64,000 nucleotides of DNA from Octopus vulgaris. Taxonomy: Eukaryota. Position numbers and translations under genes: made by a program. Below, piece after piece: positions 1-64,000 of this stretch. The stretch lies in assembly GCA_951406725.2 (NCBI GenBank), contig OX597818.1, forward strand, positions 62,000,001 to 62,064,000, in the 5' to 3' direction. The notes under the pieces were generated by a model. The model made no database searches, was not told the origin of the DNA, and saw nothing but the letters and a program-made list of their open reading frames with translations. Position 1 is the stretch's first letter, and every line of letters begins with the position of its first letter.

Positions 1-424
1 ATTGAAGTATAATTTACTGGGATATTTGTAGGTTTCGCTAAATATTTATTGAAAGTGATTCTAAAGTGGTTTTATAGGAAAACCTGGTTTTGTGCACGTA
101 AATGCAATATATACAGGAAGCTACTCAGAAATTATATATAGTAACTCTAAACTGACCTTGAATCAGAAATAAATGAAATATACTCGGTATGAAAAGAAAT
201 ATTGTACAAAACAAATATGGCGTAAAAACTGTACAAAGCAAAGACACAGAATAAGTAATAAAAAGGAATGAATTCCTATAAATGTAATATTGACTGAACA
301 ACGAGTAAATTAGGATAGTATGAGGTGCAGTGGTGGCTTATAGGAGAAGTTGGCTTCACAAACCGCATGGTTCCGGGTTCAGTCCTACTGTGTGGCAAAT
401 TGGGGAAAGTATACAGTTCTATAT

Positions 425-543
425 TTAACCACTACGCCATATGCCCACGGGGGTATGGCGCAGTGGTTAAGAGCGCGGGCTACTGTACCCAAGATTCCGA
501 GTTCGATTCCAGCCAATGACCTGAATAATAACAATAATAATAA

Positions 544-600
<57 letters not shown>

Positions 601-816
601 TACTACTACTACTACTACTACTATAACTACTACTACTACTACTAATAATAATAATAACAATAACATTGAAAAATACCTTAGGAATGAGAATCCAGGTTCG
701 AAATTTCCCCAAGACACCTGACGAAGGCTGGAGGGTATATCAACTGAAACGTTGTGTTAACAACAAACAAGATGAGGACAAATATCCATCAAATGTAAAT
801 AATGTAAATAATGTAC
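425..816 (+). mobile_element. tRNA-headed SINE-like element carrying a hammerhead motif (HHR-SINE), locus 1, with short inverted head fragment
   Basis: A box TGGCGCAGTGG and B box GTTCGATTCC; (AAT/ACT)n; GACAC-CTGACGA-AGGCTG..CAACT-GAAACGTT-GTGTT at 713-758; AATGTAAAT tail; 425-446 is an inverted copy of 451-470. Confidence 0.8.
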
Positions 817-817
817 A

Positions 818-917
818 TTGGGGAAGTATCTTCTACTATAACCACAGGCCGACAAAAGCCTTGTTAATGGATTTCGTAGACGGAGACTGAAGACAGCCTG
901 TTGCGCACATACATACA

Positions 918-7639: not shown

Positions 7640-7926
7640 CATTATTTACATTATTTACATTTGGCAGATATTTGCCTTCATCTTGTTTGTTGTTAACACA
7701 ACGTTAACACAACCCTCTAGCTTTCATCAGGTGTCTTGGGGAAATTTCGAACCTGGGTTCTCATTCCTTAGGTACTTTTCGATGTTATTATAATTTTTAT
7801 CATTATTATTATTGTTATTATTATTCAGTAGTTTTATTTTTTATAGTGCTTTTTCACTACCGAGCGCAGCTCTGTGCTTTCATGCTCTGATGGTTATTGT
7901 ATGGAAAGTGTTCTGCGTAGGATGTG

Positions 7927-7974
<48 letters not shown>

Positions 7975-8101
7975 TAGTTTTATTTTTATAGCGTGCTTTC
8001 ACTTCACTACCGAGCGCAGCTCTGTGTGCCTTGGGTATGTGCTGTGATTTGTTGTGATGCTCTGATGGTTATTGTATGGAAAGTGTTCTGCGTAGGATGT
8101 G

Positions 8102-8182
<81 letters not shown>

Positions 8183-8278
8183 TAGTTTTATTTTTATATT
8201 CATCACTATGGGTATGTGCTGTGATTTGTTGTGATGCTCTGATGGTTATTGTATGGAAAGTGTTCTGCGTAGGATGTG

Positions 8279-8314
<36 letters not shown>

Positions 8315-8336
8315 CACTACGCCATATTCCCAAGGG

Positions 8337-8381
<45 letters not shown>

Positions 8382-8533
8382 CAAAAACAACATCGAAAAA
8401 TACCTTAGGAATGAGAACCCATGTTCGAAATTTCCCCAAGGCACCTGATGAAGGCTGGAGGGTATATCAGCCGAAACAAAAAAAATGAGGACAAATATCC
8501 GTCAAATGTAAATAATGTAGATAATGTAAATAA
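7640..8533. mobile_element. HHR-SINE locus 2: minus arm (~7640-7825) and plus arm (~8340-8533) flanking R4/Dong-like 3' ends
   Basis: Left arm is the reverse complement of the element body and tail; right arm has CTGATGA at 8445-8451, GGCTG/CAGCC and GAAAC at 8473-8477, with the stem III/I region deleted; inverted head fragment at 8310-8330. Confidence 0.75.
7826..8281 (-). mobile_element. Three tandem 3'-end fragments of an R4/Dong-like non-LTR element separated by (ATT)n
   Basis: Reverse strand CACATCCTACGCAGAACACTTTCCATACAATAA = HILRRTLSIQ*, resembling R4/Dong C-termini; then a 3' UTR with AATAAA running into (AAT)n; copies at ~7826-7929, 7971-8104, 8179-8281. Confidence 0.65.
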
Positions 8534-14289: not shown

Positions 14290-14308
14290 CTTGTCTTGCT
14301 AGCTATCT

Positions 14309-15482
14309 CGGTTAATTTGCTCGGAGTCTGGTTCGGTCCGGATCTTCAAATGGAGATCCGGAGAAATAACGATTAGGGTGGTCACTCTCACCCAACAATC
14401 GGCCGAGAAGAAGCTACCCCTAAAAGGTCGGGTGGAGGTGGCAAACGCGTACATCGCATCCGTCATCGATTATCGTCTGACCGTCGTGCCTTGTCCCGAC
14501 CCTACCGTCTCCAAACTGGAACGCATACTCTTCCGCTTCTTGTGGAAAGGAAGCGTTCCAATGGTTAGGCGATCCATTTGCTGTCGACACCCGCTAAATG
14601 GAGGGCTAGGCATGCCGTGGTTGATGATGCGCAGACATGCGCGGAGATTGCGACATCTCCGGCGCTTCATAGACGACGGTGAACAGGTGTGGTCGGCGTT
14701 TGTGCGGCGCGCTATCCCGCAGCACGTCTCTTTGACCGAACTGCAGTCATGGATCAAACAGAGACCGAGGCTAGGTGAATGGCACCGCGAATGCCATCTT
14801 GCTCTTAAGTACCCCTGCCGTCCAGGACCAAACTTGTGCGACTTCAACTCCACAAAGCGTTCTGTAAAGGACTAGTGTAGGGGAGGTGCGACGACGCTTT
14901 CAGGCAGAATCTGGGCGTCGACGAGGAACAGCTGACCCGCCTGTTCAGGACAACTTTCGGGCCGGGACCTATGGACAATCACCAAAGATCTCTGGCCTGG
15001 CAGTGCTATCGAGAAGCATTATCCGTTCGGGATAAGCTCTACAGGCACGGTTCGAGACACACCGGACCGACTTGACCGAGATGCGGTCAGATCCACGAGA
15101 CCATTCTGCACGCACTCGTGCAGTGTCCATCCATTTCGGACCTGTGGGCTTATGCCGAACGGCTGCTGTCACGCGTGGAACGAGTCCGCCTGCCGGCAGA
15201 GTCTGTCCTGAAAATTGCTCCGCTACCTTCACGTAACCGGGAAGGCAAAACAGTCTTTATCGTACTGGTGGCCATGGCGAAAGAATGTGTGTGGCGGACT
15301 CGAGCGAAATGATTAGAGACAAACACTTACCTCTCTGGCCAATCGCTCATCAACTGAAAAGGAAGGTGAGAATAGAGAGGTAAGTTTTGTCTTGTGAAAG
15401 ATTCATTAAAAGGTGGGTGAATGTAGCAAAGATGGTGCGTGCGAGTGACGAAACCACTTTGAGCATGATCCTGTAAATCGAA

Positions 15483-22035: not shown

Positions 22036-23159
22036 ATTCAATCTGAGCTACGATACACTGCATTAAAGTTGATGATTAACTTTGCACCAATCTAATAAGG
22101 CACATCAGATAGTTCTGGATACACTGATGCTGAAATTGAGATGGAGTGGTCTCATCTAAAACTTTGAGCAGAGGTCTGCTCAATCAGGAGCTAAACAGCG
22201 ACGAACAAACATTTTGTGATCATTTTAATCACTTCAAACATTGATGCACGACCGAAACCCTTGAGCGGAGGATTGCACTAGCGATTTCTTTATTTGCATC
22301 TAGAATCCCAAATAATCAAATAAACTAGTGAAGACAAGAAATTTTAGATACACACACACACACACACACAATTAAAATGTAAATGACATACGTAATATTA
22401 AACTGCTAGAAAAACAGGAAAGACAGCTGTCGATCCCCTTACGGTTTTGATGGTTAAAGGGTTTGTGTCGATTGTTTCCGGTGGAGAGGTAAAATTCAGA
22501 AAGACTCTTATATTTTTCTCGTTCGAGATCAGAGATGGCATTGAGGACACAAGAATGATTAAAGCAAAACTTATTTTAGCTGCATTTAATTTTTATATTT
22601 ATTCTCTGTTCGTAGTTTGCATTGCGTTGAGTGAGAAACTTATTTTTAATTCGAAATTGCTATTCTTTAAGATGCTATCGTAGTAGTTATCTACTCTGTT
22701 GAGTTTCGGTTTGTCTGAAAATGTATTAGAAATTCTTTCCCATATCTTTAATTACGTTCTTGAAGGTGATAAGAGTGTCTTTACAATTTCTGTTGATTTA
22801 ACGTAAGCTTTTCATTGAGTTTTCTGTGTGGTTTGTAATCACTCGTGTAATCTAAGATGACAGACACACAAAAAGGCTGCCAATACTTATATCGGTAGTT
22901 ACAGTCATGCCAAGTCCTAATTCTATACAAGTAAATGCAACATTTAAAGAGTGGATACGATAACGAAATCAAAAGCCATTTTGTCAAATTGTTCATGTTT
23001 AGTTTTTGATTGGATGTCACAAGATTTTCTCTTGTTGCCCCTAAAAAATACATGCTAAGAACAAAACATTCCACGACGGTCCCTGGAAGAAAAAGTAATG
23101 GGCTCCCGTTTCACTTAGAGGCGATTAATACTTGGTCTACTTACATTAATTTCATCATT

Positions 23160-23332
23160 TACGGTATTTACATTATTTACATTTGACTGATATTTGTCCT
23201 CATCTTGTTTATTGTTAACACAACATTTCGGCTGATATACCCTCCAGCCTTCTTCAGGTGTCTTGGGGAAATTTTGAACCTTGCTTTTCATTCCTAAGGT
23301 ATTTATCGATGTTGTTGTTGTTGTTGTTGTTG

Positions 23333-23403
<71 letters not shown>

Positions 23404-23528
23404 GTTATTATTATTATTATTATTGTTATTATTATTATTATTATTATTCAGGTCACTGCTTGGAATCCAACTCGAAATCTTGGGCTTTGTAGACCGCGCT
23501 CTTAACCACTATGCCATATGCCCGTGGA

Positions 23529-23591
<63 letters not shown>

Positions 23592-23762
23592 CAACAACAA
23601 CAACATCGAAAAATACCTTAGGAATGAGAAGTCAGGTTCGAAATTTCCCCAAGACACCTGAAGAAGGCTGGAGGGTATATCAGCCGAAATGTGTTAACAA
23701 CAAACAAAATGAGGACAAATATCCGTCAAATGTAAATAATGTAAATAATGTAAATGATGTAT
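23160..23762. mobile_element. HHR-SINE locus 3: full minus-strand copy (23160-23523) plus headless plus-strand copy (23527-23762)
   Basis: Long inverted repeat; both arms carry GACAC-CTGAAGA-AGGCTG..CAGCC-GAAATGT; tRNA-like head at ~23450-23523 on the minus strand. Confidence 0.88.
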
Positions 23763-24169
23763 ATAATTCCTTATCTCTTAAAAATATAGAACTATGCTTG
23801 GTCTACTTGTTCCATACAGATATAGTTTACCTCAATGAAAATACATCTGAATTCGAGGTGTCCATTTCTATAAACGCTCAATTTTGTAAGAAGAGGTGTT
23901 AACAAGGAAACAAAAAGTAGGGGTGACAAGCTATCATCTCACATGATGCCTTCTGGGTAACACACAACGTCGGATTCAATTTGTTTTCTTATTGCCTGCC
24001 TTTGAGAATAATACAAATAATAATAAAAAGATTTGTATTGGTATTATGCGTTGAATAACTACAACCAATGGCTGTAGAACTTTGTAACTTTGGTTAATTT
24101 TAACAGTTTGATAATCCATCCATGTAGTTTACGAATAAATACATTTTGGTAATCCAAACACACTATATA

Positions 24170-26492: not shown

Positions 26493-27922
26493 GCACACAC
26501 ACATATATATATGTACACACACACATATATATATATATATACACGATGCAAATAAGAACGCTTTTTTCCTCTTCTTCTGATGTAATAGTATATTTATTAT
26601 TCAGAGACGTAGTTACTGTGTGATGCTGCACAGGAAAAAAATGTATTGCTGATAGCTAACTGTTTTTTTTCTTGGTAGTTTATTAGGAAAATACGAAAAA
26701 TAAACCCCAAAAATATTAAAATGACGTACCAAAATAAACACCACCACCACCAACAAATTCAAAACAAGATGCAACAACCAGTCTCACCCCCACCACCTCC
26801 ACCACCACCATCACCAACAACAATAACTAAAAACATAACCCACAGGATTTTATTTTATATGTGGATTGCTAAGTTTCTTATAACGTAGTGTACAATATTT
26901 TGGTTGGTTATCATGTCTTCTCACGAAGGGATCTAATTTTGCTGATGTGAATACAAAATTTGCGCTAAAGAATAAAACAAACAAAAAAATCAACAATTTG
27001 TTTTGAAAGTATTTTGCGATCTGTTTATCTGTTTCTTTCCTTTTCTCCCTCTCGCTTACAATTTTTTGTTTTTTGTATCAAAAAGAGACTTTATTTTCTA
27101 GCAGATAACATTCACTTTTCCAGAGTTTGAAAAGATAAAATTTAAAAATCAAATATAAATAAAAAAAATATCAGCAGAAACCGTTTGTTGTTATCTAAAC
27201 ATTCGGTTCTTTAGAAATATAGAAATTAAATTTAGTGATCAGAACTTATGAAATTTTCAAATAGTGATGAAACGCCTTAAGCGGGTAGATTTTAAAAAAA
27301 AACATTTCTTGTCCAAAATCATATCACCATACCTGCAACAAAATAAACGTATATGATACATTGGCTATTGTAATTTGTAAAGAGCTATAAACTTTTTTGT
27401 TTTTCTTCTTCAGAGTACTTAAATCCTGTACGTTATTGCGATGACAGTGAATTAAACGACGCCAGCAGGATTTGAATGGACCCCAAGACCAGAAGCAACG
27501 AATTTGATATTTTAGCTGTCATATAAATTCGTTCGTTTTATTTTAATTGGCACTCAGTCGTCATATGTCTGAAAAGATATAAAAATTTATTCAAATTTGA
27601 AATAAAAAAGAAACAACGAACAAAAGTTGTAGAAGAAGAATGATGCTATAAGAAAATCGGAATACATTATGATAAAAATGTATTATGATAAAAACACTTT
27701 TCATAATTAATAGAACGAATGAATTTATCTGACAACCAATAATTTAACACGGTGTTCCTCATAGGAGAGGAGGCTCCATCCAAAGAGGCAGAGTCTGAGA
27801 GGAATGGCAATTAAAGTAAACAAAATGCCGTGCTTAATATATTCAAGATGGCTTCCATTTACTTAAACTCGTCCAACGCCATGACGAACAAAGCAGAATT
27901 AAATGGATGAGATCTCTAATTT

Positions 27923-28134
27923 GTACATTATTTACATTATTTACATTTGATGGATATTTGTCCTCATCTTGTTTGCTATTAACACAACGTTTCGGCTGAT
28001 ATACCCTCCAGCCTTCATCAGGTGTCTTGGGGAAATTTCGAACATTGGTCGGCATTCCTAAGGGCATATGGCATAGTGGTTAAGAGCGCGGGCTACTAAC
28101 CCCAAGATTCCGAGTTCGGATCCAGGCAGTGATC

Positions 28135-28188
<54 letters not shown>

Positions 28189-28380
28189 TCGAAAAATGCC
28201 TTAGAAATGAGAACCCAGGTTCGAAATTCCCCCAAGATACCTGATGAAGGCTGGAGGGTATATCAGCCGAAACGTTGTTAATAACAAAGAAAATGAGGAA
28301 AAATATCCGTTAAATGTAAATAATGTAAATAGTGTAAATAATGTGTAAATATATGTGAATAGAGTAAATAAAAGTGTAAA
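27923..28380. mobile_element. HHR-SINE locus 4: truncated minus arm (27923-28061) plus full plus-strand copy (28062-28380)
   Basis: Head GGCATATGGCATAGTGGTTAAGAGCGCGGGCTACTAACCCC..GAGTTCGGATCC; (AAT)n; HHR cores at 27981-28026 (minus) and ~28236-28278 (plus). Confidence 0.88.
27981..28026 (-). ncRNA. Type I minimal hammerhead ribozyme motif (best-preserved HHR-SINE copy)
   Basis: GACAC CUGAUGA A GGCUG-GAGGGUAUAU-CAGCC GAAAC GUU GUGUU: stem I GACAC/GUGUU, 5-bp stem II, palindromic AACGUU minimal stem III, GUU site. Confidence 0.75.
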
Positions 28381-28382
28381 TA

Positions 28383-28546
28383 TAGGTGCAGGAGTGGCTG
28401 TGTGGTAAGTAGTTTGCTTACCAACCACATGGTTCTGGGTTCAGTCCCACTGCGTGGCACCTTGGGTTAGTGTCTTCTACTTGAGCCTCGGGCCAACCAA
28501 TGCCTTGTGAGTGGATTTGGTAGACGGAAACGGAAAGAAGCCCGTC

Positions 28547-28581
<35 letters not shown>

Positions 28582-29030
28582 TAACGGGAAGGTTTACGAA
28601 AATAAACAAAAGACGAAGGCAGGTGGAGTACAAACAAGCAAATGTATTTGTATGGCGCTCAGGAATAGAAAAAGTCTTTTACGTTTCGAGCCTACACTCT
28701 TCGACAGAAAGATACACAGAAAAGAAACAAGGAGAGAAAAAAATGCGTGTAGGAGCTAACGGTCCATCATGGCTATATATATACATATACATATACATAT
28801 ATATATGTGTGTGTATATGTTGTGTATCTGTGTTTGTTCCCCCCTCCCCAACATCGCTTGACAACCGATGCTGGTGTGTTTAGGTCCCCGTAACTTAGCA
28901 GTTCGGCAAAAGAGACCAATAGAATAAGTACTAGGCTTACAAAAAATAAGACCTGGGTTCGATTTGATTCGACTAAAATCGGTTGCTCCAGCATGGCCGC
29001 AGTTAAATAACTGAAACAAGTAAAAGAATA
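28383..29030 (+). mobile_element. SINE family A interrupted in its (TA)n by a ~195-bp PLE-like remnant (28580-28775)
   Basis: Head at 28383; insert carries minus-strand CTGTCGA-A-GAG..CTC-GAAACGTA; SINE 3' half resumes at ~28800. Confidence 0.8.
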
Positions 29031-29737
29031 ATGAGAAAGAATGTCCTCATCTCTTAAATACAGAATCTCTAATTTGTCTTTATGGTTTCAGATTTTGACA
29101 CAAAACCGACAATTTTAGCGGATGAGACAAGTCGATTACATCGAACCCAGAATTTGATTGGTAATTTAGATTATCGACTCCGAAAGGATTAAAAATAAAG
29201 TTGACCTCGACGTAATTTGAACTCAGAACGTAAAGAGCCGGAAAAAATGCCAATAAGCATGTTGTTCGACGTGCTAACGATTCCGCTTAGCATTGTTTGT
29301 TTTCTCATTAATGTGGGAAGGGTGGGGAGATGGCGATCTGGAAGAATCGCTCAGGCATTGGAAAAAATGCCTTATGGTATATCTTCGAATCTTTATATTC
29401 TGAGTTCAAATCTCACCGAGGTCAACTTTACTTTCCATCTTTCGGGGCTGCTGGTTTCGACTAATTTTTTCTCCTCAGAATCGCTGGCCTTGAGTCAGAA
29501 ACCATTAAGAAAGCGGCAAAAGAGAGGGTCAACGACGGCAAAAAGAAGGAAAAGGAAAGGTGAACGGCAAAAAAACCTGACAAACATTTTGTGCAGTTTA
29601 GGGATAAACTACTGATTGTCACTTTAAGAAAATCTGTCTTAATATTTTTATCAACTCTTGGCATTTTTTACACTTTCAATTGTGAAAAGTGGTTACATAA
29701 AAAACTTTACAGGTGTGTGTGTGTGTGTGTGTGTGTC

Positions 29738-30199: not shown

Positions 30200-31170
30200 A
30201 CAAGTCTGTCGACAAAGTTCTGGTGGCAAACACAGCGAGGTAGGCAGAGGAGTTGATGCAGGAAGTGGAGACTGTGTTGATGTGTGTGGGGCTGAAAATG
30301 AATGAAATAAAGACGAAATATCTGGTAGAGAACATTAAGAAACCAGAGAAGATTATGAATGTAGGCGGGAAGCCACTAGAGTTGGTTGAGGACTTCCTGC
30401 ATCTGGGAGCAAAGATAGGGAACGCAGATGGTGATATAGTTGAGAGGAAGAGCAAAGCCTGGGTGGTATGCCACAGTTTGAGATCTCTATGGAAGTCGGA
30501 CCGTTGTGAAGACCTGAAGATCCGTCTCTTCGTTGTTGCAGTGGAGTGTGTGCCGTTGTACGGGTCTGAGACTTGGATACTGTCGACCAAGAATCTCACT
30601 CAGATGGTGGATAGGTGCAACATGGGAATGCTGAGGATGGCTCTGAACATTAATCCGTATACATCTTTATATATAAAAGAGAGGTTGTGTGCTGTCTGTC
30701 TCCTACGATTTAGATTCCTAACTACTCCCACATTTTGCGGTGCAGTTTAACCAAAACCGGGTATCTCATAGTCGTGATTCATATCGAGCCCTTATGGGTA
30801 TTAGCGCACGTCTACGATGAGTCTACGATTAAAAAAAAAATTACCATCAATTTTTCCCATTTTTAATGCATTTTTGGCATATATAAGGGAAGTAACTCTC
30901 CAAAAATTTATTATTAAATCTCAGACCGTAAAAAGCTACAGTAACACCCCCCCTTTGTGGTTAGCCATATTGAGATGGCTATTATACTTTACATCTCTAA
31001 AAATGTTTATATAGTTATTTCCCTTACAAACCCGAGCAACGCCGGGCGATACTGCTAGTTGAGGATAAAGGACTCAGAGTTGTGCGAGAGCCTCGCAAAA
31101 GTTAGCTCGAAAATAACACAGAGGAGACTGAGGTTAGCTGGACATGTTCTCTGTCATTCAGAGTTGATAC
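30200..31170 (+). pseudogene. RTE-clade LINE RT C-terminal fragment split by a Helitron
   Basis: VGLKMNEIKTKY..ELVEDFLHLGA..LKIRLF..VECVPLYGSETW..MLRMALNI; removing 30664-31058 restores in-frame NPYT-LRIKDSEL..QRRLRLAGHVL. Confidence 0.88.
30664..31058 (+). mobile_element. Non-autonomous Helitron, copy 1
   Basis: 5' TC, 3' CTAG, subterminal hairpin CCCG..CGGG, inserted at A|T with no TSD; second copy at 57154-57544. Confidence 0.88.
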
Positions 31171-35434: not shown

Positions 35435-35512
35435 CCGGTCGAGAATTCCCTAAACTGATCCGTCAGTTTCGGTTCTTATCGCAGCCTCATCAGTAAGGAC
35501 GGCTCGACTCGG
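35435..35512 (-). ncRNA. Type I hammerhead ribozyme motif with stable stem III and extended stem I
   Basis: GUCGAG ccg UCCUUA CUGAUGA GGCU-GCGAUAAG-AACC GAAACUGA-CGGA-UCAGUU UAGGGA auu CUCGAC; core intact, one stem II mismatch. Confidence 0.8.
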
Positions 35513-36205: not shown

Positions 36206-36677
36206 TAACTTAGAATAACTTAGAAAGGTTTTTGGCCAGTATTGGCCCAGGCCATGTCTAACTTAATAGCACCACCTGGCGAAGTCTTTCAGTTCAGGAT
36301 TTGGGCACCAAGGCCCATTCGAGCAGAGAGTTATTGTTTGCGGAGACATATCCGGGTGTGGATGGTTTGTCCGGTACTGTTTGAAGGAATTTGTCCAAAG
36401 ACTTCTTGAATTTTGTGTGGTCAGTTTCTTTTTTGACGTGTCCTGGTGTAATGTTGAAGAGAGCGGGTCCAATTGAGGTGAAATAGTTGTGCCGTATTGT
36501 CGTTATGTGATGCGATTTAGATTTTTGTTGTGGACGGATGGCACGTGGTCCAAGCCTTGGATGCATTTTGAAGGTGATGCCAACATCATTCGGACAGTGC
36601 TGATGGAATATTTTCCACATCATACAGATAATGTAGCGTTCACGGCGTCGTTGGAGTGAATACAATTTCAGCTTCTG
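36206..36677 (-). mobile_element. 3' end of a CR1-group LINE
   Basis: KLKLYSLQRRRERYIICMMWKI..GPALFN..KFKKSLDKFLQTVPDKP* followed by a short UTR and a tandem TTCTAAGTTA tail. Confidence 0.82.
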
Positions 36678-36772
36678 TATGTATGTAGGTATATACATAT
36701 ATGCATATATTTACATATTATTTATGTAATTATATGATCGAACGCCACGCATTCATTTCCAAGTAAGTTTTA

Positions 36773-55520: not shown

Positions 55521-55974
55521 GCATGCTGAAGAATCAACGGATGTGCGTGCCCTTAACGTAGTTCTCAGGGAGATTAAGTATGGAACAGGATGTGTCAAGG
55601 CTGGCCCCTTTGCAATACAGACACAACTTATTTTTGCCAGCTGAGCGAACCGGAGCTATGTGAAATAAGGTGTCTTGCCCGAGGACACAATGTATGGCCA
55701 GGCTTCTCAACTGGCAAAATAGAGCCCCTGTAATTCAAAGGGCCAGACTGGTCCACATTTTGTGTCAGGCTGAAACTCCCTGAGAACTAAGTTAAAGGTA
55801 AGTGTGTTTGTGGAGTACACAGCCACTAGCATGTTAATTTTACGAGCAGGATGTGCTGCTGGTTGGATCAGCTGAAACCCTGGCCGTCGCTATCGACGGA
55901 ATGCCATTTATTTCTATGAAAGCCTAACTAAATATTACAGTTCTATATTGAAGAGATGAAGAATTATGTACATT

Positions 55975-56421
55975 CTCTTTTACTCTTTTTACTCTTTTAG
56001 TTGTTTCAGTCATATGACTGTGGCCATGCTGGAGCACCGCCTTTAGTCGAGCAAATCGGCCCCGGGACTTATCTTTGTAAGCCTAGTACTTATTTTATTG
56101 CTCTCTTTTGCCGAACTGCTAAGTCACAGGGACGTAAACACACCAGCATCAGTTGTCAAGCGATGTTGGGAGGGGGACAAACAGACACATAAACACAAAC
56201 ACACACACACACATACACACAGACATACACACACACGCACACATATATATACATATATACGACGGGCTTCTTTCAGTTTCCGTCTACCAAATCCACTCAC
56301 AAGGCTTTGGTCGGCCCGCGGTTATAGTAGAAGACACTTGCCCAGGGTGTCACGCAGTAGGACTGAACCCGGAACCATGTGGTTGGTAAGCAAGCTACAT
56401 ACCACACAGCCACTCCTACGC
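55975..56421 (-). mobile_element. SINE family A, full length
   Basis: Reverse-complement match to 33489-33897. Confidence 0.9.
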
Positions 56422-56423
56422 AT

Positions 56424-56570
56424 ATTTACACTATTTGCATTTGACGGATATATGTCCTCATCTTGTTTGTTGCTGATGAAGGCTGTAGGGTATATCCATC
56501 GAAACGTTGGTGTTAGCAACAAACAAGATAAGGACAAATATCCGTCAAATGTAGATAATGCAAGTAATGT
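56424..56570. mobile_element. HHR-SINE locus 5: short degenerate inverted pair of 3' ends
   Basis: Minus tail at 56424-56472 abuts CTGATGAAGGCTG..GAAACGTT and a plus-strand tail. Confidence 0.7.
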
Positions 56571-57153
56571 TAACTAAACTCATAACCCAATTCATCCACA
56601 TAACGATACAAAAGTAATCGCCAGTCGATAATTTCATAAGACTTCGAACAAATAAATATTAGAACTCATATCCAATATATATTTAATATTGCCGTGAAAT
56701 TAAGTCCAGCCGGACTGCATTAGCAGCTTGAGACAAGCTTCGAACCAACCGGTTTTATTCATATTTATCAATTCCCCTGGATATGTTTGTTTGCTCTCGT
56801 CAAGCCGATGTTCATCTGTTGCCTCTTTTGGAAGCAACACGGCTTCTTATATCAAAATTCCACTTCGCCCTTCGATGATTTAGTATGAAATTCCGTAATA
56901 TTATCGCATTTCCTTATTGGGTTTCTTCGTAATGTTGTACACTGTACACACTTCTCTCGAACACCAAGCGCGCAGAATTACAAATGTACTCAGAGACTGA
57001 CATACGTACGCACCAATACATACACACATACGCACATAAGATGAACACGTACATGCAAACACACACACACATACATACATGCATACATACATACATAAAT
57101 ATATACATACATACATATATATATACATACAGACATACATACATATGCATATA

Positions 57154-61558: not shown

Positions 61559-61999
61559 ACTTCCAATCTAAAATATCAATATTTTAAAATATAAAAATAA
61601 TAATTTTAAAATAATTAAAGTATGAATGAAAAAATATAAATATATAATCCGTATATAACCTATATATAATCCATATATAATCAATATATAAACAATATAT
61701 AAACTAAAATAAACCTATCAACAATTAAATATAAAATATAAAATATAAAATATAAAATATAAAACAAAACAAAAAAATAATAATAATATAATAATAAACT
61801 ATATATACACCCATACACATATAACTAATTATATATAACCATATCTAACTACATACACTAAATCACACACCTATATATATATATCCCTAAACATACACAT
61901 AAAAACGTCTAGGCAACTATAAATAAATAAAATAGCTAAATACTTCAACACAATACTTATTCATACTCCCACACACACACATACAAACCACATTCACGC

Positions 62000-64000
62000 T
62001 CTAGAAAACGGACATCACTTAAAATTATGAACGGAGAAATGGAATAAATGGAATTAAAAATTATATTCACTTGGTAAAACGAACACTACTTAAAAATTAT
62101 GAATGAAATAATGCAATAAAACAACAGACATCGCAAATAGACACAAATTACTACGAATTCCTTAACAAACCTACCATGATAAACCAATACTCATAAAAAC
62201 ATATAATGATAAAATCTCCCTTTACTAAACTCTATAACATACCTATATAGCAATCCCCCTAAACTAAACATTCACACACAAATACACACACGTAAACCAC
62301 ACACCCACGACATATACAAATACCCACACCACTTACACATACCAATACATACATATAAACCTCAACATATACTCCAAAAACCCACTCAACCCCACACAGA
62401 CAAATATACACAAAAATTATGAATGGATTCTTTTATAAAACTACCATGATAAGCTAAAACTCACAAAAACATAAATGATAAAACCTCCCTTTACTAAACA
62501 CTATAACATACTTATATAGCAATCCCTTTAACCTATACATTCACACACAAATACACACACGTAAACCACACACCCATAACAAATACAAACACCCACCCCA
62601 CTCACACACACCCACAAGTACATATAAGCCTCAACATATACACCAAACAAAATTACTTTACCAAGGAACTTAACATATGTATAAAAAGTATAACCGCTCT
62701 GGAAACTAACATCTTTTAAAATAATGAATGGAGAAATGGAATAAATGGAATTAAAAATAATATTCACGTGGCAAAACGAACACCACTCAAAAATTATGAA
62801 TGAAACAATGTAATAAAACAACCAACATCGAAAATAGACAAATTACCACGAATTCCCTAAAAAAACCATGATAAACCAAAACTCTTAAAACCTATAACGA
62901 TAAAATCTCCCTTTGCTAAACTCTATAACAAACCTATATAGCAATCCCCTAACCTAAACATTCACACACAAATACACACACGTAAACCACACACCCACGA
63001 CATATACAAATACCCACACCACTTACACATACCTATACATACATATAAACCTCAACATATACTCCAAAACCACTCAACCCCACACAGACAAATATACACA
63101 AAAATTATGAATGGATTCTTTTATAAAACTACCATGATAAGCTAAAACTCACAAAAACATAAATGATAAAACCTCCTTTACTAAACACTATAACATACTT
63201 ATATAGCAATCCCTTTAACCTATACATTCACACACAAATATATACACACGTAAACCACACACCCATAACAAATACAAACACCCACCCCACTCACACACAC
63301 CCACAAGTACATATAAGCCTCAACATATACACCAAACAAAATTACTTTACCAAGGAACTTAACATATACTTTTTATACATATGTTAAGTTCCTTGGTAAA
63401 GTAATTTTGTTTGGTGTATATGTTGAGGCTTATATGTACTTGTTGGTGTGTGTGAGTGGGGTGGGTGTTTGTATTTGTTATGGGTGTGTGGTTTACGTGT
63501 GTGTATTTGTGTGTGAATGTATAGGTTAAAGGGATTGCTATATAAGTATGTTATAGTGTTTAGTAAAGGGAGGTTTTATCATTTATGTTTTTGTGAATTT
63601 TAGCTTATCATGGTAGTTTTATAAAAGAATCCATTCATAATTTTTGTGTATATTTGTCTGTGTGGGGTTGAGTGGGTTTTTGGAGTATATGTTGAGGTTT
63701 ATATGTATGTATAGGTATGTGTAAGTGGTGTGGGTATTTGTATATGTCGTGGGTGTGTGGTTTACGTGTGTGTATTTGTGTGTGAATGTTTAGGTTAGGG
63801 GGATTGCTATATAGGTATGTTATAGAGTTTAGTAAAGGGAGATTTTATCATTATATGTTTTTATGAGTATTGGTTTATCATGGTAGGTTTGTTAAGGAAT
63901 TCGTAGTAATTTGTGTCTATTTGCGATGTCTGTTGTTTTATTGCATTATTTCATTCATAATTTTTAAGTAGTGTTCGTTTTACCAAGTGAATATAATTTT
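62000..64000. repeat. Two tandem ~680-bp units (each with two ~280-bp subrepeats) followed by an inverted copy extending beyond the window
   Basis: Units at ~62000-62695 and ~62697-63368; 63365-64000 is the reverse complement of ~62056-62691. Confidence 0.9.

What the first reader, a model, noticed from the sequence alone, without database searches (positions are those of the whole stretch)
23160..23762. HHR-SINE always occurs with an inverted partial copy, and the two arms share private variants
All five loci have an inverted partial copy with a different junction each time. At this locus both arms carry the same deviations (CTGAAGA instead of CTGATGA, GAAAT instead of GAAAC), which the other four loci lack. 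This implies both arms came from one template in one event, or were homogenised later. Inverted 5'-truncated repeats are the known PLE insertion signature and are not typical of LINE-driven SINEs.
Basis: partly seen in the sequence, partly recalled or inferred. Interest (0 to 1): 0.72.

Follow-up and report, generated by a model that had tools for sequence, protein, structure and literature searches.

The report
Two-armed Penelope retrotransposon end insertion
This mirror-image repeat is the broken-off end of a protein-coding Penelope-type jumping gene, not a separate SINE, and across the genome nearly every such pair has its short "tail" on one arm only inside one target duplication, which likely records both cut DNA ends being copied from the element's RNA at two different start points in a single event.

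Summary
The "HHR-SINE" is the pseudo-LTR of an autonomous Penelope/Poseidon-type element: upstream it joins an RT plus GIY-YIG ORF, and its hammerhead body and tail encode that ORF's first codons.

"Always" fails: 124 of 180 sampled loci are inverted, about 58% after bias correction. The two named variants are not private. One is a subfamily marker (24% of exact-match copies); "GAAAT" is a CpG decay in one arm and a 3-nt deletion in the other. Arms are no closer overall than random copies (6.95% vs 6.98%), so homogenisation is rejected, but they share subfamily markers.

Single-event origin rests on better evidence: tail on exactly one arm in 83 of 89 pairs, TSDs in 62 of 89 (2.5% shuffled), and often neither arm contains the other. 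118 of 144 arms that reach the tRNA-Arg-like head stop there, which suggests an internal Pol III-type start (untested).

The geometry is published; the strict tail coupling and tRNA-type head were not found in print. This scan already reported this family on other DNA.

The parts
23131..23142 (+). Left copy of the 12-bp target-site duplication (15 bp with one mismatch if extended leftwards)
   Evidence: sequence; TSD finder
23143..23311 (-). Left arm body: pLTR segment that encodes the ORF start in full elements; ends at the internal, tail-less end in TGTAAATAA-type units
   Evidence: 93% to family majority
23217..23262 (-). Minimal type I hammerhead motif of the left arm (A at variable core position 7; CpG C>T after GAAA); predicted, activity untested
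   Evidence: no Rfam hit
23312..23447 (-). (AAT)n(AAC)n linker of the left arm
23448..23527 (-). tRNA-Arg-like head with A- and B-box-like motifs. In full elements it lies about 28 nt after the ORF stop codon. This arm ends about 4 nt upstream of the tRNA-like +1
23527..23527 (.). Head-to-head junction, 1-nt overlap
   Evidence: printed junction
23527..23603 (+). Right arm 5' part: last 7 nt of the head plus (AAT)n(AAC)n linker; the rest of the head is missing (5' truncation)
23604..23762 (+). Right arm body; the ATG at 23624 corresponds to the first codon of the PLE ORF
23653..23695 (+). Minimal hammerhead motif of the right arm with a 3-nt deletion at the predicted cleavage triplet; likely inactive
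23763..23793 (+). PLE tail (about 31 bp), on this arm only; contiguous with the ORF N-terminus in full elements
23797..23808 (+). Right copy of the 12-bp target-site duplication
414..818 (+). Family locus: tiny inverted tail plus inverted head piece, then head and tail-less body; TSD 400-412 / 818-829 with one indel
7641..7784 (-). Family copy, tail-less, no clear inverted partner or TSD
8310..8531 (+). Family copy with a short inverted head piece, tail-less
27924..29065 (.). Family inverted pair; right-arm tail displaced to 29027-29065 by later insertions; 13-bp TSD 27912-27924 / 29065-29077
55938..56570 (.). Family inverted pair; left-arm tail displaced to 55938-55974 by later insertions; 8-bp TSD 55925-55932 / 56571-56578

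Best explanation
The locus is a single, heavily 5'-truncated insertion of an autonomous Penelope/Poseidon-type retroelement, and its two arms likely arose when the element's protein cut both target strands about 12 bp apart and primed reverse transcription from both DNA ends, one at the tail start site and one at an internal start site about 30 nt upstream. SHOWN: the unit is the element's pLTR (ORF stop, 28 nt, tRNA-like head, AAT linker, hammerhead body with the ORF start, tail, ORF continues); one TSD encloses both arms; the tail is on exactly one arm; in many pairs, this one included, neither arm contains the other; arms share subfamily markers but have since diverged independently. INFERRED: a coupled (probably dimeric) protein-RNA complex assigns one start site to each DNA end; the two cDNAs are joined head to head, often at short overlaps or at the head's own inverted repeats; if one cDNA is very short or lost, a 'solo' copy results. 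INFERRED, less sure (about 0.55): the tRNA-like head is an internal Pol III-type promoter, so most templates begin there and most cDNAs run off at that point, which is why the copies look like a SINE. Whether one RNA or two RNAs from the same source were used is unresolved.
For: LINK TO THE ORF: in 26 of 30 loci retrieved with the ORF 3' end the head follows the ORF directly. In 28 of 30 loci retrieved with the ORF 5' end the tail precedes it directly, one of them partial. Body plus tail translate in frame into the ORF N-terminus. PROTEIN: RT domain by Pfam RVT_1, E 2e-10 to 5e-10. C-terminal domain: nearest Atlas clusters carry GIY-YIG, score 0.96; two invariant tyrosines in 49 homologues; model pLDDT 91.5 resembles the I-TevI catalytic domain, probability 0.87, target TM 0.67. 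TAIL AND TSD: of 89 scorable pairs the tail is on one arm in 83, neither in 5, both in 1 (P 2e-18 against 0.5). TSD score >=8 in 62 of 89 against 2.5% of 1325 shuffled pairs, mode 12-13 bp. The tail-less arm is the longer one in 45 of 83 pairs, so there neither arm can be a copy of the other. SHARED SOURCE: subfamily concordance with T-anchored loci 26 of 26 partners T, A-anchored 25 of 34 partners A, G8 sub-subfamily 4 of 4; rare shared non-CpG variants 26 against 8.7 expected. The subfamilies are of similar age. LITERATURE: Anolis PAc protein cuts and extends both strands and starts RT at two internal sites that define the tail (PMC11167929). HEAD: 118 of 144 arms that reach it stop within about 30 nt of its start; it aligns best with host tRNA-Arg, z 7-9.
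Against: [quoted passage not shown] Junctions vary: 52 of 84 show an overlap of 1 nt or more, but 13 have gaps over 3 nt. About 30-45% of loci show no inverted piece. 27 of 89 pairs have no detectable TSD. Pfam gave no GIY-YIG hit and the fold match had E 0.62. For the Pol III step: Rfam and ARAGORN do not call the head a tRNA; the absence of T4 runs on the sense strand is not clearly significant (order-2 expectation 1.7, G4 also absent); among ORF-5'-linked pLTRs only 2 of 6 stop at the head; a hairpin-like palindrome at the head start could cause the same cliff. No RNA data were examined.
Confidence: 0.8

Rival explanations
1. An independent tRNA-headed, hammerhead-bearing SINE that borrows PLE enzymes in trans: short copies are themselves the source genes.
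For: Most H-anchored arms stop at or before the head. The head has A/B-box-like motifs and tRNA-Arg likeness. Short copies greatly outnumber ORF-bearing ones: 26 of 313 arms pass 20 nt upstream of the head.
Against: The same unit is the ORF-linked pLTR. Both subfamilies occur in ORF-linked (33) and short (94) copies, with no marker confined to short copies. In PAc the template must extend to +172 of the ORF, beyond the start sites, which tail-ended short copies would lack if this element behaves alike (inference).
Confidence: 0.12
2. Fold-back or self-priming: one cDNA, or an antisense template as proposed for Adineta PLEs, folds back at a palindrome and copies itself to make the inverted arm.
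For: Some junctions sit in the head's own inverted repeats (overlaps of 20-28 nt in 10 of 84). Short fold-back pieces occur at the head start. Proposed in PMC3846280. It would give identical arms at birth and subfamily concordance.
Against: A fold-back copy must be contained in the first arm. In 45 of 83 pairs the longer arm lacks the tail that the shorter arm has, as at this locus. The rescue needs a longer precursor trimmed at one fixed point.
Confidence: 0.12
3. Two independent insertions side by side, or later gene conversion between arms, explain the pairing and the shared letters.
For: A few pairs share several rare variants (L159 three, L136 two). CpG decays coincide in both arms 55 times against 40 expected.
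Against: One TSD surrounds both arms (62 of 89). Strict tail asymmetry (83 of 89). Arm-to-arm distance equals random, 6.95% vs 6.98%.
Confidence: 0.03

Closest known systems
EN+ Penelope/Poseidon PLE PAc of Anolis carolinensis (PMC11167929)
   Same: RT with C-terminal GIY-YIG; hammerhead at the pLTR-ORF junction; two internal RT start sites about 110-150 nt into the ORF that define the tail; both strands cut and extended. Here the tail-less ends fall about +120 to +130 and the tail end about +150 from the ATG, leaving extra 9-mer units aside.
   Different: No tRNA-type head was reported for PAc in the text I read. The ATG lies upstream of the hammerhead core here, at stem II in PAc. Strict one-tail coupling between the two ends was not measured there.
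Adineta vaga Pen2a and Drosophila virilis Penelope (PMC3846280, PMC2377424, PMC8557442 Fig. 2)
   Same: Inverted 5'-truncated pLTR completing the insert, 8-10 bp TSD, 31-34 bp tail optionally on one inverted pLTR, pLTR containing the first codons, partial tandems.
   Different: Their promoters are TATA/Inr-like or DPE-like (Pol II type) and copy numbers are low. Those papers explain inversion by self-priming. Here there are about 3x10^4 loci and a tRNA-Arg-like head where most copies end.
Minimal hammerheads of truncated PLEs (Cervera and de la Pena 2014, PMC4209133)
   Same: Type I minimal HHR with palindromic stem III region. Pairs on opposite strands 100-700 bp apart were already noted in Schistosoma and ascribed to truncated PLEs.
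   Different: No tail, TSD or arm-relatedness statistics in the sections read.
Schistosoma Sm-alpha / Sj-alpha SINE-like hammerhead repeats (as reviewed in PMC6765202)
   Same: Pol III-type promoter joined to a hammerhead.
   Different: Non-coding and tandem, with no ORF of their own. This element is the end of its own RT/EN gene.
L1 twin-priming inversions (recalled, no call)
   Same: Both target ends prime reverse transcription, giving a 5' inversion inside one TSD.
   Different: In L1 the two segments cover different parts of the RNA. Here both arms start within about 30 nt of each other and overlap almost entirely.

Membership tests
EN+ Penelope-like element | Single ORF with RT domain | tested here: met
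   Pfam RVT_1 on two natural open stretches, E 5.5e-10 and 2.4e-10; close relatives of 745-834 aa
EN+ Penelope-like element | C-terminal GIY-YIG endonuclease with CCHH motif | tested here: met
   Atlas neighbours GIY-YIG, 0.96; invariant Y183 and Y193; I-TevI fold probability 0.87 but E 0.62. No Pfam hit. C-x-C, H, H read by eye
EN+ Penelope-like element | pLTR flanking the ORF in partial tandems and containing its first codons | tested here: met
EN+ Penelope-like element | Hammerhead motif in the pLTR | tested here: met
   Core CTGAnGA/GAAA with stems I and II by RNAfold; no Rfam hit; cleavage not tested
EN+ Penelope-like element | 30-40 bp tail at one end, inverted 5'-truncated copy, short TSD | tested here: met
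Penelope/Poseidon clade specifically | RT phylogeny and no Zn-finger linker between RT and EN | tested here: inconclusive
   No extra linker motif seen by eye; no tree against named clade members could be built because the homologues are unnamed
tRNA-derived SINE | tRNA-derived head with A and B boxes | tested here: met
   Best local alignment to host tRNA-Arg among the tRNAs in 30 fetched loci, z 7-9; not called by Rfam or ARAGORN
tRNA-derived SINE | Non-autonomous lineage separate from any ORF | tested here: not met
   Unit is contiguous with its own ORF on both sides; no marker confined to short copies
tRNA-derived SINE | LINE-derived 3' end and plain TPRT insertions | tested here: not met
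   The 3' end is the start of the PLE ORF, with two alternative ends and inverted arms
tRNA-derived SINE | Transcribed by Pol III | not testable with these tools
   Indirect only: 5'-end cliff at the head; T4 absence inconclusive
Non-LTR retrozyme | Non-coding head-to-tail tandem units, each with an HHR | tested here: not met
   Loci are solo or head-to-head and ORF-derived; tandem bodies are rare

The most novel reading that the evidence does not exclude
A protein-coding Penelope-like retrotransposon is transcribed from a tRNA-Arg-derived Pol III promoter built into its pLTR, and a single protein dimer on one RNA primes both ends of the cut target at two different, obligately paired start sites. 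That would explain the long-unexplained PLE inverted arm and one-sided tail, and would make an abundant 'SINE' a strong-stop by-product.
Probability: 0.35. Interest if true: 0.78.

Novelty: new variant of a known kind. Interest (0 to 1): 0.5.

Why it matters
How PLEs make their tandem and inverted structures is stated as open in PMC8557442 and PMC11167929. Tens of thousands of short, old insertions give counts that small families cannot. The tail is not merely optional: it is on exactly one arm of a pair (83 of 89), and the arms often do not contain each other. That argues against fold-back and predicts a testable coupling in the existing PAc in vitro system. The tRNA-type head would be an unusual promoter for a protein-coding retroelement. 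It also warns that some 'SINE' calls in such genomes are PLE ends.

Tried and rejected
Rfam (gathering on the window, E-value mode on one copy) and ARAGORN found neither hammerhead nor tRNA. The general repeat finder was swamped by microsatellites. Pfam found no GIY-YIG, and the PDB sequence search gave only weak RT hits.

Pol III evidence from missing T4 runs: 0 in 2604 nt against 4.6 in base shuffles, but only 1.7 expected at order 2, codon shuffles give P 0.03-0.12, and other retroelement fragments are T4-poor too. I did not use it as support.

Search for an empty site: no joint skipping the insertion was seen among the rows shown. A contig from a more distant organism (37 differences in about 460 nt of flank) runs about 20 nt into the left arm and stops, which hints that the insertion is old. 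Its right flank was not covered, so this is inconclusive.

Homogenisation and a sister-arm tree were rejected.

Rows left out before counts: L001 (this locus), L025, L007, L163 and L164 (duplicates), L311 (no element), and L312 (dropped as a presumed duplicate, though it was not otherwise held). Ten nested, tail-to-tail or multi-arm loci were left out of the pair statistics (L033, L134, L172, L185, L189, L262, L265, L266, L283, L289), and 12 pairs were not scorable at their 3' ends. The 124 of 180 count still includes L265 and L283, which are not true head-to-head pairs.

Anchored samples are the best or first-listed hits (60 of 1598 majority matches, all on one contig; 49 places from the double-variant list of 142; 30 of 523 T>A-only matches), so they are not random. 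Only the 12-locus sample is systematic. No complex prediction was run.

Full report
OBSERVATION. The window lies in a 2.8-Gb animal genome. A close homologue of the element's protein is named from Octopus sinensis, so the host is octopus-like. At the finding there is a head-to-head pair: a minus-strand arm 23143-23527 (body, AAT/AAC linker, tRNA-like head) and a plus-strand arm 23527-23793 (last 7 nt of the head, linker, body, 31-bp tail), with a 1-nt overlap at the junction. A 12-bp duplication encloses both arms (23131-23142, 23797-23808). In the window 5 of 6 family loci carry an inverted piece. Two of them have their tail pushed away by later insertions but keep their TSD.

'ALWAYS' AND 'PRIVATE'. 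Of 180 sampled loci outside the window, 124 were inverted and 56 solo; the systematic sample of 100 x 10 kb gave 6 of 12. Weighting for double sampling gives 58%. Density implies about 3.4x10^4 loci (95% interval 1.7-5.9x10^4). Exact 35-mer counts were 1598 (majority), 523 (T>A), 465 (GAAAT) and 142 (both), against 152 expected if independent. T>A is one of three linked markers that split two subfamilies and falls on the variable position 7 of the CUGAnGA core (established knowledge). GAAAT is a CpG transition in the left arm and most simply a 3-nt deletion in the right arm; CpG sites in the family are decayed in about 22% of copies. A shared C>G at body position 28 is the only rare shared change: 31 genome matches, two of them these arms. 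About 9% of random pairs would share one such variant (8.7 over 97 pairs).

ARM RELATEDNESS. In 97 simple pairs the non-CpG distance between arms was 6.95%, against 6.98% for shuffled partners; the true partner was nearest in 1 of 69. So there was no general homogenisation, and a sister-arm tree would fail. Subfamily markers agree strongly: T-anchored loci 26 of 26, A-anchored 25 of 34, G8 4 of 4; among 43 pairs typed cleanly at two markers only 1 mixed the subfamilies. Rare shared variants were 26 against 8.7 (0 of 5000 shuffles reached it). The subfamilies are of similar age (P 0.15), so concordance points to a common source, not just a common time. It cannot separate one RNA from two RNAs of one source.

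WHAT THE ELEMENT IS. Several 'solo' copies continue upstream of the head into conserved coding sequence. Of 30 loci retrieved with that sequence, 26 have the head directly after the stop codon, typically about 28 nt on. [quoted passage not shown] Body and tail read in frame as the ORF's first residues. 28 of 30 loci retrieved with the ORF 5' end have the tail directly in front, several in partial tandems. Both subfamilies occur in ORF-linked and short copies, with no short-only marker (33 and 94 copies). The unit is therefore the pLTR of an autonomous EN+ PLE, and most copies are extreme 5' truncations.

MECHANISM. In 89 scorable pairs the tail is on one arm in 83, neither in 5 and both in 1. 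A TSD is found in 62 (2.5% of shuffled pairs), mostly 12-13 bp and 75% A+T. The tail-less arm reaches further 5' in 45 pairs, the tailed arm in 25, and 13 are equal. In the 45, and at this locus, each arm holds sequence the other lacks, so neither is a DNA copy of the other. Junctions overlap by 1 nt or more in 52 of 84. The Anolis PAc protein cuts and extends both strands and starts RT at two internal sites that bound the tail (PMC11167929). The simplest reading is two primings in one event, one at each site, by a coupled complex; the coupling is my inference. Of 144 arms that reach the head, only 26 pass 20 nt beyond it. The head aligns best to host tRNA-Arg, which suggests that most templates begin at an internal Pol III-type start. 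Against this: a palindrome at that spot could stall or join cDNAs, T4 absence is inconclusive, only 2 of 6 ORF-5'-linked pLTRs stop there, and no RNA was examined.

KNOWN AND NOT KNOWN. Inverted truncated pLTRs, a tail often on one end only, and short TSDs are the described PLE pattern (PMC8557442, PMC3846280). Opposite-strand hammerhead pairs from truncated PLEs were noted in Schistosoma (PMC4209133). Seven literature searches found no report of a tRNA-type head inside a PLE pLTR and no count of strict tail coupling. The library lacks most subscription papers, and Repbase and Dfam could not be checked.

PAPERS SEEN. PMC11167929: main text, parts 1-2 of 4, plus passages. PMC4209133: results and discussion. 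PMC13282606: part 1 of 3. bioRxiv 10.64898/2026.07.22.740005: part 1 of 5. PMC8557442, PMC3846280, PMC2377424 and PMC6765202: passages only. No supplements were read; the repeat library of PMC13282606 may already hold this family. L1 twin priming is recalled.

EARLIER SCAN NOTES. After I had formed my reading, one search showed that this scan had reported the same family several times on other DNA of this genome with the same conclusion, once as a PLE-driven SINE, and the same one-tail pattern in other hammerhead repeats. These notes are not independent support; they led me to two papers.

VERDICT. Real feature; PLE signature and single event supported; 'always', 'private variants', 'SINE' and 'homogenised' not supported. 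New variant of a known kind, interest 0.5.

Noticed in passing
window 61997-64000: Young tandem array of a unit of about 690 bp (copies 94% alike) followed by an inverted copy 99% identical to the first unit (636 nt, cut by the window end); no hammerhead core by my simple pattern. Tandem-plus-inverted geometry recalls PLE-mobilised repeats.
   Followed up: partly
window 7826-8300: Three partial tandem copies of an unrelated unit of about 170 bp separated by (ATT)n, lying between two family copies.
   Followed up: no
window 35493 (minus strand) and 20046 (minus strand): Other CTGATGA...GAAA motifs outside this family; the one at 35493 has a short hairpin between the core parts and may be a second hammerhead family.
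   Followed up: no
L363, L366, L368, L372, L376, L378, L379: Seven of 30 ORF-5' loci have a sense-strand piece beginning at body position 129-133, so the ORF is preceded only by the 9-mer unit and tail. This resembles the 'solo ORF flanked by 34-bp repeats' of the D. virilis group.
   Followed up: no
L365, L369, L379, L381, L385, L389, L390: Internally deleted forms: pLTR plus 230-650 nt of ORF start joined to a second pLTR piece. These could be true non-autonomous sources because they keep sequence downstream of the tail.
   Followed up: no
window 14303-14875, 30244-30750, 36294-36710: Fragments of other retroelement ORFs, judged LINE-like by eye.
   Followed up: no
L159, L136: Pairs sharing two or three rare variants, candidates for real local conversion or a diverged source element.
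   Followed up: no
L012, L175, L185 and flanks: Head-less bodies preceded by the same unrelated repeat ending in (AAT)n, perhaps junctions formed in or insertions into another repeat's AAT tail.
   Followed up: no
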